Origin: Escherichia coli
GTDB lineage: Bacteria; Pseudomonadota; Gammaproteobacteria; Enterobacterales; Enterobacteriaceae
Assembly: GCF_024298765.1 (NCBI RefSeq)
Contig: NZ_CP101210.1
Direction: 5' to 3' (one strand)
Length of the DNA stretch: 64,000 nucleotides
Shown: positions 58,861-60,155 of the stretch, in pieces
Numbering within the stretch: the first letter of the stretch is position 1
Layout of the letters: every line of letters begins with the position of its first letter
The notes under the pieces: model-generated
Databases searched by the model: none
Told to the model about the DNA's origin: nothing
The model's input: the letters and a program-made list of their open reading frames with translations, nothing else
Program-made: the position numbers and the translations under genes

Positions 58861-60155
58861 CTTTATCCCGACAGACGACGTATATTTACCAGTAAGGCCA
58901 ACCCGGTTGCGCCCTTTGAACCAGAAGTCAAACGTCAGGCTGTCATGGCACTCTGTACACGACAAGTATCAGCCAGTGAAATCGCCAGGCGTATTGGTGT
59001 CAGTCGTGCGGTATTGTATAAATGGAAAGATAAAATTATCGGCAACAGTGCTTACCAGACTATGCGTAAACATAACGAACCTTCCCTGGAGGCAGAACGC
59101 GATGCGTTGCGGGAGGAAGTCGCCCGACTGAATCAGGAAATACGCCGCCGGCAGATGGAGCTGGATATTCTGAAAAAGGCGGAGGAAATCATAAAAAAAG
59201 ACCCGGGCATCAGTATCAGTCACCTGAACAACAGAGAGAAAACGAAGATCGCTGATGCCCTGAGACAAACATATCCCCTGACAGAATTACTGCATGTTCT
59301 GGGCCTTGCCCGTAGCAGTTATTTTTATCACCGGGCTGCACTGAAAGCCGGTGATAAATACGCCACGATACGTACGATGCTGACAGATATATTTAACAGT
59401 AATTACCAGTGTTATGGCTATCGTCGCCTGCATGCGATGCTCAGGCATGAGGGGGGGCGGCTATCAGAAAAGGTTGTACGCAGACTTATGGTGGAAGAAC
59501 AGCTTGTCGTCAGCCGTAACCGTCGTCGCCGCTACAGCTCATATTGCGGAGAAATCGGACCGGCTCCGGATAACCTTATCGCCAGAGATTTTAAGGCGGA
59601 GCAACCTAATCAGAAATGGCTGACAGATATCACGGAGTTCCACCTCCCTGCAGGTAAAGTCTGGCTATCATCGGTGGTGGACTGCTTCGATGGAAAAGTT
59701 GTGAGCTGGTCTCTCAGTACACGCCCCGATGCTGAACTGGTCAACACTATGCTGGATAGCGCTGTCGAAACGTTAAATGCTGGCGAACGACCGGTGATAC
59801 ACAGTGACAGAGGTGGGCATTATCGCTGGTCAGGCTGGCTGGAAAGAGTGAATGCAGAAGGTCTTATTCGCTCAATGTCCCGCAAAGGATGTTCACCTGA
59901 TAATGCGGCATGCGAAGGCTTTTTCGGCAGACTGAAAACGGAAATGTATCATGGGCGTAAATGGTCGGGCATCACGCCAGAAAAGTTCATGCAGCAAGTG
60001 GATACTTACATCAGATGGTATAACGAGCGGCGTATAAAATTATCGCCGGGTGCAGTCAGCCCCAAAATGTACCGCCAACAATGCGGGCTGGAATGATAAA
60101 GCAGTCCAGGAAATCGTCCGCATCCCCAGAACGGTCAAACATCGTGGCGTTGACA
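58861..60155 (+). mobile_element. IS3-family element, 5'-truncated by the IS66-family element; orfA and orfB fused in one frame (58945..60096)
   Basis: Frame open from 58861 (…PFEPEVKRQAVMALCTRQVSASEIARRIGVSRAVLYKWK…) without start codon; A7G slippery-type motif at ~59189; rve core (HSDRGGHY); right terminal repeat CGGTCAAACATCGTGGCGTTGACA at 60132-60155. Confidence 0.7.

What the first reader, a model, noticed from the sequence alone, without database searches (positions are those of the whole stretch)
58861..60155. IS3-family element with orfA and orfB in a single frame and its 5' end removed by an IS66-family element
The frame is open from the IS66 boundary through the OrfA HTH and leucine-zipper region, an A7G slippery-like run and the OrfB catalytic core, without the usual -1 frame change. 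That would give a constitutively fused OrfAB transposase if a start codon existed. The missing left end and start make the element non-autonomous, but its right end is the sequence found duplicated as the palindrome at 4222-4272.
Basis: seen in the sequence. Interest (0 to 1): 0.3.

Follow-up and report, generated by a model that had tools for sequence, protein, structure and literature searches.

The report
Truncated single-ORF IS3-family insertion sequence
This is a dead, 5'-truncated copy of an ISKpn38-like insertion sequence whose single reading frame is the normal state of its whole subgroup, so it is ordinary, although that subgroup keeps a conserved frameshift signal inside the single frame.

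Summary
Window 58861-60096 is one open frame running HTH, coiled coil, an A7G run and a DDE core, and it is cut on the left by an IS66-family element (56350-58860). RefSeq annotates the identical locus as an N-terminally truncated IS3-family transposase pseudogene, and the junction occurs in 186 E. coli genomes.

The proposed cause, a 1-bp insertion at the slippery site, is refuted. Four close copies carry the same ATAAAAAAAG with no indel there, and their consensus is one 510-aa ORF. ISKpn38 and about 70 relatives from several phyla are also single ORFs of about 510 aa.

In 75 of 77 relatives the hinge reads NNA AAA AAA G, against each element's own codon usage. Five nt downstream lies an 11-bp stem with compensatory changes (window 59205-15 / 59250-60). 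This is a conserved -1 frameshift cassette inside a single ORF. I infer that normal decoding gives the transposase and slippage gives a truncated OrfA-like protein. No experiment tests this.

The mobile unit ends at 60127 (GGGG...CCCC inverted repeats). The 25-mer at 60131-60155, which matches the arms of the palindrome at 4222-4272, lies outside it.

The parts
56350..58860 (-). IS66-family element (tnpA 58350-58775, tnpB 58003-58353, tnpC 56380-57972) that forms the left boundary. It has no 8-bp direct repeat (flanks CATCTCTT / CTTTATCC).
58861..60127 (+). 5'-truncated remnant of an ISKpn38-like IS3-family insertion sequence. It corresponds to positions ~334-1603 of the ~1603-bp element and lacks the IRL and codons 1-100.
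58861..60096 (+). Open frame equivalent to residues 101-510 of the 510-aa transposase (HTH_Tnp_1 58915-59142, HTH_21 59386-59529, rve 59599-59889, rve_2 59914-60081). Stop TGA is at 60094-60096.
58945..58947 (+). First in-frame ATG, which would give a 383-aa product.
59193..59199 (+). Slippery heptamer A_AAA_AAA, in phase with the ORF and followed by G at 59200. It is conserved in 75 of 77 relatives.
59200..59204 (+). 5-nt spacer between the heptamer and the stem.
59205..59260 (+). Conserved RNA hairpin. The 5' arm 59205-59215 pairs with the 3' arm 59250-59260. In the window the fold is -19.7 kcal/mol, z -3.9.
59253..59255 (+). First stop (TGA) in the -1 frame, 18 codons after the slip site and inside the 3' arm of the stem.
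59225..59227 (+). First stop (TGA) in the +1 frame, 8 codons after the run. This frame is read if one A is lost from the transcript.
60103..60127 (+). Right terminal inverted repeat of the mobile unit (AGTCCAGGAAATCGTCCGCATCCCC).
60128..60130 (+). AGA, the 3 nt where relatives carry a 3-bp target duplication. The left copy is lost here.
60131..60155 (+). 25-mer ACGGTCAAACATCGTGGCGTTGACA, flanking DNA outside the element. It is identical to an arm of the palindrome at 4222-4272.
4222..4272 (.). Perfect 25+1+25 palindrome made of the same 25-mer and its complement, lying between a dGTPase gene and a recombinase gene.
60158..60403 (+). C-terminal remnant of an IS91-family transposase gene, forming the right context.

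Best explanation
Window 58861-60127 is an immobile, 5'-truncated copy of an IS3-family insertion sequence from the ISKpn38-like subgroup. Its left inverted repeat and first 100 codons were lost at a rearrangement junction with an IS66-family element.

Shown:
- The single orfA-orfB frame is the native organisation of this subgroup: one ORF of about 510 aa, three HTH-type modules, a coiled coil, a DDE core, GGGG(A/G)TGCGGAC... terminal repeats and 3-bp target duplications.
- The hinge carries a conserved recoding cassette: heptamer A_AAA_AAA in phase, a 5-nt spacer, and an 11-bp stem closing a loop of about 34 nt.

Inferred:
- In intact copies, ordinary decoding makes the full-length transposase.
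- A -1 ribosomal slip at the heptamer, stimulated by the stem, and/or addition or loss of an A during transcription of the run, moves ribosomes into a frame that stops after 18 (or 8) codons.
- That would give an OrfA-like DNA-binding protein of about 212 aa plus a short tail, which would modulate transposition.
- This is the logic of dnaX tau/gamma and the inverse of canonical IS3 elements, where the shift is needed to make the transposase.

In the window copy the cassette is intact but irrelevant, because the element has lost one end and its N-terminus.
For: Identity and truncation:
- Pfam domains and the NCBIfam IS3 model.
- Alignment to full-length copies.
- Only the 3' 1267 bp of the element is present in the window.
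- RefSeq annotates the same locus as an incomplete IS3-family transposase missing its N-terminus.

Native single ORF:
- The consensus of close copies is 510 aa.
- Of the 120 best homologues from ENA, JGI, Logan and NCBI gene calls, those covering 100% of the query are 508-515 aa, at 56-98% identity.
- 80 loci from Proteobacteria, Firmicutes, Spirochaetes and others, most with one stop-free frame of at least 500 codons.
- ISKpn38 is 1533 nt in one frame.

Cassette:
- 75 of 77 elements have NNA AAA AAA G.
- Elsewhere in the same ORFs only 40% (median) of Lys codons are AAA, as low as 4%. Only 13% (median) of Leu/Ile/Val codons end in A.
- RNAalifold independently predicts the stem.
- 98.4% of cells pair, against 22-48% for slid controls. 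52 cells show double changes, 5 pairs covary, and 0 of 500 shuffles reach this.
- The window hairpin folds at -19.7 kcal/mol, z -3.9.
- The -1 and +1 frames stop within 1-28 and mostly 8 codons.

Precedents:
- A_AAA_AAA is listed as a shift-prone heptamer, and A_AAA_AAA plus a stem-loop is called a proven case for IS600 (PMC4066793).
- Seven A suffice for transcriptional slippage in IS1447 (PMC6211511).
- dnaX makes its short product by -1 shift or slippage from a single ORF (PMC5009743).
- A Dickeya relative with A6G has the canonical two-ORF layout, so the two layouts differ by one A.
Against: - No protein or RNA data exist for any member. The truncated product and its regulatory role are inferred.
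- Two relatives (L041, L059) have lost the A run yet keep the single ORF and the stem, so the run is not indispensable.
- The -1 tail is not conserved in sequence or length.
- The stem lies in conserved coding sequence, and the sequences are related, so the shuffle statistics overstate independence.
- No upstream Shine-Dalgarno-like stimulator is conserved. The window has GGAGG at 59181-59185, but most relatives do not.
- No Rfam frameshift-element family matches.
Confidence: 0.75

Rival explanations
1. One reading: this copy, or its immediate lineage, acquired a 1-bp insertion at a canonical A6G slippery site. That accidentally fused orfA and orfB into an abnormal, constitutively fused transposase.
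For: A7G equals A6G plus one A. One Dickeya relative (L082) has A6G with the canonical OrfA stop 8 codons later and orfB in the -1 frame.
Against: All close copies share A7G with no indel. 75 of 77 relatives across phyla have A7G in frame. Thousands of homologues of about 510 aa are called as single ORFs. ISKpn38 is a single ORF. If an insertion happened, it was at the root of the subgroup, not in this copy.
Confidence: 0.02
2. The run and stem are conserved, but not to make a second protein. They pause the ribosome so that the nascent N-terminal DNA-binding part binds the element's own ends co-translationally (cis preference). Alternatively they have some other RNA-level role, and shifted products are by-products.
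For: The stem is kept even in two relatives that lost the run. The -1 tail is unconserved. A published idea links pausing during frameshifting to cis preference of IS transposases (cited in PMC3711429).
Against: Pausing alone does not explain why the third position of the preceding codon and both Lys codons are fixed as A in hosts of 33-65% GC. That pattern is the exact requirement for tandem tRNA re-pairing in the -1 frame.
Confidence: 0.15
3. The shift occurs mainly during transcription: RNA polymerase slips on the A7 run and adds or drops an A, rather than the ribosome slipping. Both outcomes truncate the protein.
For: Seven A are enough for about 16% slippage in each direction in IS1447 (PMC6211511). 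Runs of seven A are depleted from E. coli genes in all frames (PMC4066793). Both alternative frames close quickly.
Against: A covarying stem placed 5 nt 3' of the run is the classical stimulator of ribosomal -1 shifting and is not needed for polymerase slippage (spacing rule in PMC4066793). The phase of the run relative to the ORF is fixed, which matters only for ribosomal shifting.
Confidence: 0.2
4. The element really extends to 60155. On this view the 25-mer (TG...CA type tip) is the true IS3-style end, and the palindrome at 4222-4272 is a miniature derivative made of two such ends.
For: The same 25-mer follows the element, 3 nt away, in three E. coli copies whose further flanks differ. In many relatives a TGT lies 29 nt outside the conserved repeat on both sides, forming outer inverted repeats. 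The solo palindromes sit at junctions of truncated genes.
Against: Two copies in one genome that are 100% identical from repeat to repeat have unrelated sequence immediately outside the repeats (L068/L069). The commonest E. coli copies (query 1-1268, e.g. ST131) end at the core repeat with no 25-mer. 10 of 35 elements have identical 3-mers directly abutting the core repeats, against about 0.5 expected. A solo 52-bp element equals the L003 site minus the element and one AAG.
Confidence: 0.1

Closest known systems
ISKpn38 (IS3 family; the name used by NCBI's annotation pipeline for Klebsiella plasmid copies)
   Same: Single ORF of 510 aa with the same domain order. Same hinge (ATAAAAAAAG, 5-nt spacer, GGGC.TC.../...GATGCCC stem). 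Same type of terminal repeat (GG..GTGCGGAC...CTGGAC).
   Different: Only 63.6% amino-acid identity over the 407 residues retained in the window. It is therefore a different insertion sequence of the same subgroup. I could not query ISfinder to learn whether the E. coli element has its own name.
Canonical IS3-family elements (IS911, IS150, IS2, IS600)
   Same: HTH plus coiled-coil N-terminal part and an rve DDE core. An A-rich heptamer followed by a stem-loop at the junction. 3-bp target duplications. IS600 uses the same heptamer, A_AAA_AAA.
   Different: In those elements orfB is in the -1 frame and the shift is needed to make the transposase. Here the two parts are in frame, so the shift would truncate. 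The N-terminal part is about 120 aa longer. The ends read GGGG...CCCC rather than TG...CA.
E. coli dnaX (tau/gamma) recoding
   Same: One long ORF, an in-phase A-rich heptamer and a 3' stem-loop. The long product comes from normal decoding and the short product from a -1 shift into a frame that soon stops (PMC5009743; sequence features).
   Different: dnaX has a conserved upstream Shine-Dalgarno-like stimulator and a stop one codon after the shift. Here no upstream stimulator is conserved and the tail is 1-28 codons. No product has been observed.
IS1447 / IS120 subgroup of the IS3 family
   Same: An IS3-family subgroup that departs from -1 ribosomal frameshifting and relies on an A run. Seven A suffice for slippage (PMC6211511).
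   Different: IS1447 has two ORFs, a run of nine A, needs +1 transcriptional slippage to make its transposase, and encodes about 400 aa.

Membership tests
IS3 family | Transposase with an rve-type DDE catalytic core preceded by HTH and coiled-coil regions | tested here: met
   Pfam rve E 2.7e-18, rve_2, HTH_21 and HTH_Tnp_1 on the window translation. The NCBIfam IS3 model scores 424 bits against a cutoff of 160 on the 98%-identical full-length protein.
IS3 family | Two partly overlapping ORFs, with orfB in the -1 frame and OrfAB made by programmed -1 frameshifting | tested here: not met
   There is a single frame in the window, in close copies, in ISKpn38 and in about 70 of 80 relatives. The heptamer and stem are nevertheless present.
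IS3 family | Terminal inverted repeats ending 5'-TG...CA-3' | tested here: not met
   Repeats of the mobile unit begin GGGG(A/G)TGCGGAC and end ...GTCCGCA(T/C)CCCC. Identical copies diverge immediately outside them.
IS3 family | 3-4 bp target-site duplication | tested here: met
   10 of 35 relatives with both ends found have identical 3-mers abutting the repeats. This is not testable for the window copy itself, because its left end is missing.
ISKpn38-like subgroup | About 510-aa single ORF with a 120-aa N-terminal extension, an A7G hinge and GGGG..TGCGGAC ends | tested here: met
   The window retains residues 101-510, the hinge and the right repeat. The N-terminal extension itself is lost from this copy.
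ISKpn38 itself (the same insertion sequence) | Near-identity to the reference. By my recollection ISfinder uses about 95% nucleotide or 98% amino-acid identity. | tested here: not met
   63.6% amino-acid identity over 407 residues.
dnaX-type recoding (works like, not a member) | In-phase slippery heptamer plus a 3' stem-loop 4-10 nt downstream, inside a long ORF | tested here: met
   The spacing rule is from PMC4066793.
dnaX-type recoding (works like, not a member) | Two protein products observed, with the short one ending in the -1 frame | not testable with these tools
   This needs Western blotting, mass spectrometry or reporter assays.
Rfam frameshift elements (IS1222_FSE, DnaX_FSE and others) | Match to a curated covariance model | tested here: not met
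   No relevant hit, even at E up to 10, in 58861-60160.

The most novel reading that the evidence does not exclude
A large, cross-phylum subgroup of IS3-family elements (ISKpn38-like) has inverted the family's classic translational control. orfA and orfB are fused in frame, yet the slippery heptamer and its stimulatory stem are kept under strong purifying selection. The transposase would then be the default product, and programmed -1 frameshifting or A-run slippage would make the truncated OrfA-type regulator. I found no description of this arrangement in the papers I could search. I could not check ISfinder/TnPedia or the Fayet and Prere IS3 chapter. I recall, without having verified it, that IS1221 was reported to make a truncated product by frameshifting within a single ORF.
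Probability: 0.35. Interest if true: 0.5.

Novelty: new member of a known kind. Interest (0 to 1): 0.25.

Why it matters
For this window it matters little. It is a dead IS fragment in an IS-rich island, already annotated as such in RefSeq.

Two wider points follow.

First, annotation. Pipelines label disrupted copies of this subgroup as 'programmed frameshift' by analogy with canonical IS3 elements, although the intact gene is a single ORF. Readers may likewise mistake the native single frame for a mutation.

Second, biology. If the conserved A7G-plus-stem cassette really produces a truncated regulator, this subgroup sets its transposase-to-regulator ratio the opposite way round from the textbook IS3 model. 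ISKpn38 is abundant on Klebsiella plasmids, so it would be a convenient natural system for comparing the two solutions.

Tried and rejected
- A 1-bp insertion at the slippery site in this copy. Rejected by alignment to four close copies and by the state of the whole subgroup.
- RefSeq's 'programmed frameshift' labels on L003 and L004 as evidence for a two-ORF reference. Rejected: both have the same A7G, and the frame changes come from a 1-nt deletion and a replaced patch elsewhere.
- The outer 25-29-nt flanks as diverged copies of the element's own inverted repeat that covary with it. Tested against shuffles: median z was 0 and only 2 of 111 ends reached z of 3 or more. The idea is withdrawn.
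- The outer segments as the true IS ends. Rejected by the pair L068/L069, which are 100% identical inside and unrelated outside.
- A 3-bp duplication flanking the outer TGT...ACA tips. By eye it was inconsistent: none in L017, L023, L026, L032, L045 and L063, and 3-6 bp in L055, L081 and L029 (listing).
- Rfam scan for known frameshift elements: nothing.
- Literature: seven full-text searches and eight papers read found no account of single-ORF IS3 elements with a conserved slippery cassette. ISKpn38 appears only in plasmid inventories. Three look-ups failed because the items are not held: two recalled PMC ids for IS reviews and the PubMed id of the IS1221 paper.
- The Sharma et al. 2014 list of E. 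coli IS clusters with conserved heptamers does not include this element.

Full report
**What is in the window.** Reading 58831-60160 in the ORF's frame gives no stop until TGA at 60094-60096. The ORF finder lists an ATG-started ORF 58945..60096 of 383 aa. The 411-aa translation of 58861-60096 matches HTH_Tnp_1, HTH_21, rve (E 2.7e-18) and rve_2. Seven A at 59193-59199 followed by G are read in frame as ATA AAA AAA GAC.

To the left lies a complete IS66-family element on the minus strand, 56350-58860. It has tnpA, tnpB, tnpC and GTAAGCGT... terminal repeats. Its 8-nt flanks differ (CATCTCTT / CTTTATCC), so it sits at a rearrangement junction rather than at a simple insertion site.

BLAST of a full-length relative against the window finds only 58861-60158. 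The left ~333 bp of the IS3-like element is not elsewhere in the window.

RefSeq annotates the identical locus in E. coli strain 104 as 'IS3 family transposase, incomplete, missing N-terminus', followed by an IS91-family remnant. The IS66/IS3 junction occurs in 186 complete E. coli genomes.

**Is the single frame an accident of this copy?** No. Full-length or longer copies were fetched from an E. coli plasmid (L001) and three chromosomes (L002-L004). In the alignment all five sequences share ATAAAAAAAGA with no indel at the run.

RefSeq labels L003 and L004 'programmed frameshift'. Their only frame-changing differences from the others are a 1-nt deletion about 620 nt downstream of the run (L003) and a replaced patch about 60 nt downstream of it (L004). 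The majority consensus is one ORF of 510 aa.

- A search of 5.8 billion predicted proteins with that consensus returned 6486 hits at E of 1e-20 or better. Among the best 120, those covering the whole query are 508-515 aa at 56-98% identity. Most come from metagenome gene callers that do not model frameshifts.
- A scan of one genome per species gave 80 loci from Enterobacteria, Burkholderiales, Pseudomonas, Rhizobiales, Firmicutes, Spirochaetes and others. Most have a stop-free frame of at least 500 codons.
- A tblastn search of plasmids showed that NCBI names one member 'IS3-like element ISKpn38'. Its CDS is 1533 nt in one frame, with the same hinge, and it is 63.6% identical to the window protein.

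**The A-run is not incidental.** Of 77 elements in which the hinge could be located, 75 have exactly NNA AAA AAA G. The other two have the equally slippery A AAA AAG.

This holds across hosts of 33-65% GC. In the same ORFs only 40% (median) of other Lys codons are AAA, and as few as 4%. Only 13% (median) of Leu/Ile/Val codons end in A. Yet the codon before the run is always NTA, or GCA in one case. Treating the sequences as independent gives a summed log10 probability of -122. Relatedness inflates that figure, but the direction is unambiguous.

**The downstream stem.**
- It starts five nt after the run. RNAalifold predicts 11 pairs (alignment columns 24-34 with 69-79, which is window 59205-59215 with 59250-59260).
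- On 56 distinct sequences 98.4% of cells pair, against 22-48% when the partner is slid by 1-3 columns. Five pairs show changes on both sides (52 cells), and none of 500 shuffles reaches the observed covariation.
- One covarying position links an Ile/Val replacement on the 5' arm to a synonymous Asp codon on the 3' arm.
- The window's hairpin folds at -19.7 kcal/mol, z -3.9.
- Spacing and shape fit the empirical rules for IS3-family stimulators: a hairpin of 17-140 nt, starting 4-10 nt after the motif with a G-C pair (PMC4066793).
- No Rfam frameshift family matches it.

**How it most likely works (inferred).** The heptamer is in phase with the long ORF, so a -1 shift leaves the transposase frame. 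In the window the -1 frame stops after 18 codons at 59253-59255, inside the 3' arm. In relatives it stops after 1-28 codons. The +1 frame, read if an A is dropped from the transcript, stops after 8 codons in most.

Normal decoding would therefore give the 510-aa transposase. Slippage would give the first ~212 residues (the DNA-binding and coiled-coil part) plus a short tail. That is a protein equivalent to OrfA of canonical IS3 elements.

This is the dnaX tau/gamma arrangement (PMC5009743) and the reverse of IS911, IS150 and IS2. Three published observations bear on it:
- A_AAA_AAA is among the shift-prone heptamers, and with a stem-loop it is called a proven signal in IS600 (PMC4066793).
- Seven A also suffice for about 16% transcriptional slippage in each direction in IS1447 (PMC6211511), so both routes may contribute.
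- A Dickeya relative (L082) has A6G with OrfA stopping 8 codons later and orfB in the -1 frame. The canonical and fused layouts therefore differ by a single A.

Against the inference, two relatives have lost the run but keep the ORF and stem, and no product has ever been observed.

**Ends of the element and the palindrome.** Across the subgroup the conserved terminal repeats are GGGG(A/G)TGCGGAC... and ...GTCCGCA(T/C)CCCC, and the unit is 1594-1680 bp. In the window the right repeat is 60103-60127, a perfect complement of the left repeat of L003.

Ten of 35 elements have identical 3-mers directly abutting the two repeats, against about 0.5 expected by chance. Two copies in one Lachnoclostridium genome are 100% identical from repeat to repeat and unrelated immediately outside. 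The mobile unit therefore ends at 60127.

The 25-mer at 60131-60155 lies 3 nt beyond. It is identical to the right arm, and complementary to the left arm, of the perfect palindrome at 4222-4272. It also follows the element in L003 and L004, whose further flanks differ.

A related 52-bp solo element occurs in other E. coli contexts. It equals the L003 site with the element and one copy of AAG removed. The simplest reading is that the element had inserted into such a short palindromic element.

Many relatives in other genera are also embedded between short inverted flanks, often with TGT 29 nt outside each repeat. I could not explain that regularity. My idea that these flanks are diverged copies of the element's own repeats failed a shuffle test.

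**Comparison and novelty.** The element meets the protein-level definition of the IS3 family and shows 3-bp duplications. It does not meet two textbook features: two ORFs with orfB in the -1 frame, and TG...CA ends. It belongs with ISKpn38, which is catalogued but, in the papers I could search, appears only in plasmid inventories. At 63.6% identity it is a different insertion sequence of that subgroup. I could not consult ISfinder for a name.

I found no published account of the single-ORF-plus-conserved-cassette arrangement. It is also absent from the E. coli IS clusters with conserved heptamers listed by Sharma et al.. From memory, and unverified because the paper is not held, IS1221 of Mycoplasma was reported to make a truncated product by frameshifting within one ORF. 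The idea may therefore have a precedent.

**Verdict.** The fragment in the window is ordinary: a truncated, non-autonomous IS copy that is already annotated. The by-product, a widely conserved recoding cassette inside a natively fused IS3 transposase gene, is of moderate interest to recoding and transposon specialists, and it is testable with simple reporters.

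Noticed in passing
window 4222-4272: A perfect 25+1+25 palindrome (TGTCAACGCCACGATGTTTGACCGT T ACGGTCAAACATCGTGGCGTTGACA) between a dGTPase gene and a recombinase gene. 37 E. coli records hold it at 99% identity or more; in all six such rows listed it lies under or next to a recombinase or resolvase gene. 59 records hold an 86.5%-identical 52-bp asymmetric variant in other contexts.
   Followed up: partly
L085:1501-1552 and L086:2501-2552 (E. coli CP042903, CP045999): A solo 52-bp mini-element, TGTCAACGCC...GGCGCTGACA, with different DNA on both sides. In L086 it lies between a truncated IS100 istA and a truncated IS3-family gene. 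It equals the L003 insertion site minus the IS and one AAG. It may be a small mobile or scar element that serves as a landing site.
   Followed up: partly
L017, L023, L026, L030-L033, L036, L045, L055, L063, L071, L081 (flanks of the IS): In many genera the ISKpn38-like element sits between short inverted flanks. A TGT often lies exactly 29 nt outside each terminal repeat (Proteobacteria: TGTTGA...CTGACCC). In L011, L019 and L035 the flank is repeated in direct orientation instead. This suggests a preference for palindromic or repeated targets, but the cause is unexplained.
   Followed up: partly
window 55539-56284: A second IS66-family tnpA-tnpB pair on the plus strand with no tnpC, abutting the complete IS66-family element at 56350-58860. 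That complete element itself lacks an 8-bp target duplication. This points to IS66-mediated rearrangement or deletion at this site.
   Followed up: partly
window 60158-60403: C-terminal remnant of an IS91-family transposase gene immediately right of the 25-mer. RefSeq annotates it as incomplete in the identical locus.
   Followed up: partly
window ~60988-64000 (+): Start of a large autotransporter outer-membrane protein gene (ATGAATAAGAAT...). In the identical RefSeq locus it is a 3498-nt CDS. The window is an IS-rich island that is chromosomal in some E. coli strains and on IncF plasmids in others.
   Followed up: no
L003:2704-4235 and L004:2704-4235 (RefSeq CP014667, CP076270): RefSeq marks these copies 'programmed frameshift'. 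Their frame changes are a 1-nt deletion and a replaced patch away from the A run. The L004 patch, TTGGATTTGCCCCTA, resembles the tip of IS2. These labels look like artefacts of applying the canonical IS3 model to a single-ORF subgroup.
   Followed up: partly
L001:5737-7236 (plasmid CP104511): The same IS copy, with the same right flank as the window, is cut further upstream by IS2. An ATG inside the IS2 end creates a 499-aa hybrid ORF that RefSeq calls an intact IS3-family transposase.
   Followed up: partly
L082:2119-2200 (Dickeya oryzae): A relative at 75% identity with A6G instead of A7G and the canonical two-ORF, -1 arrangement. It is either a 1-nt deletion mutant or a natural switch between the two layouts.
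   Followed up: no
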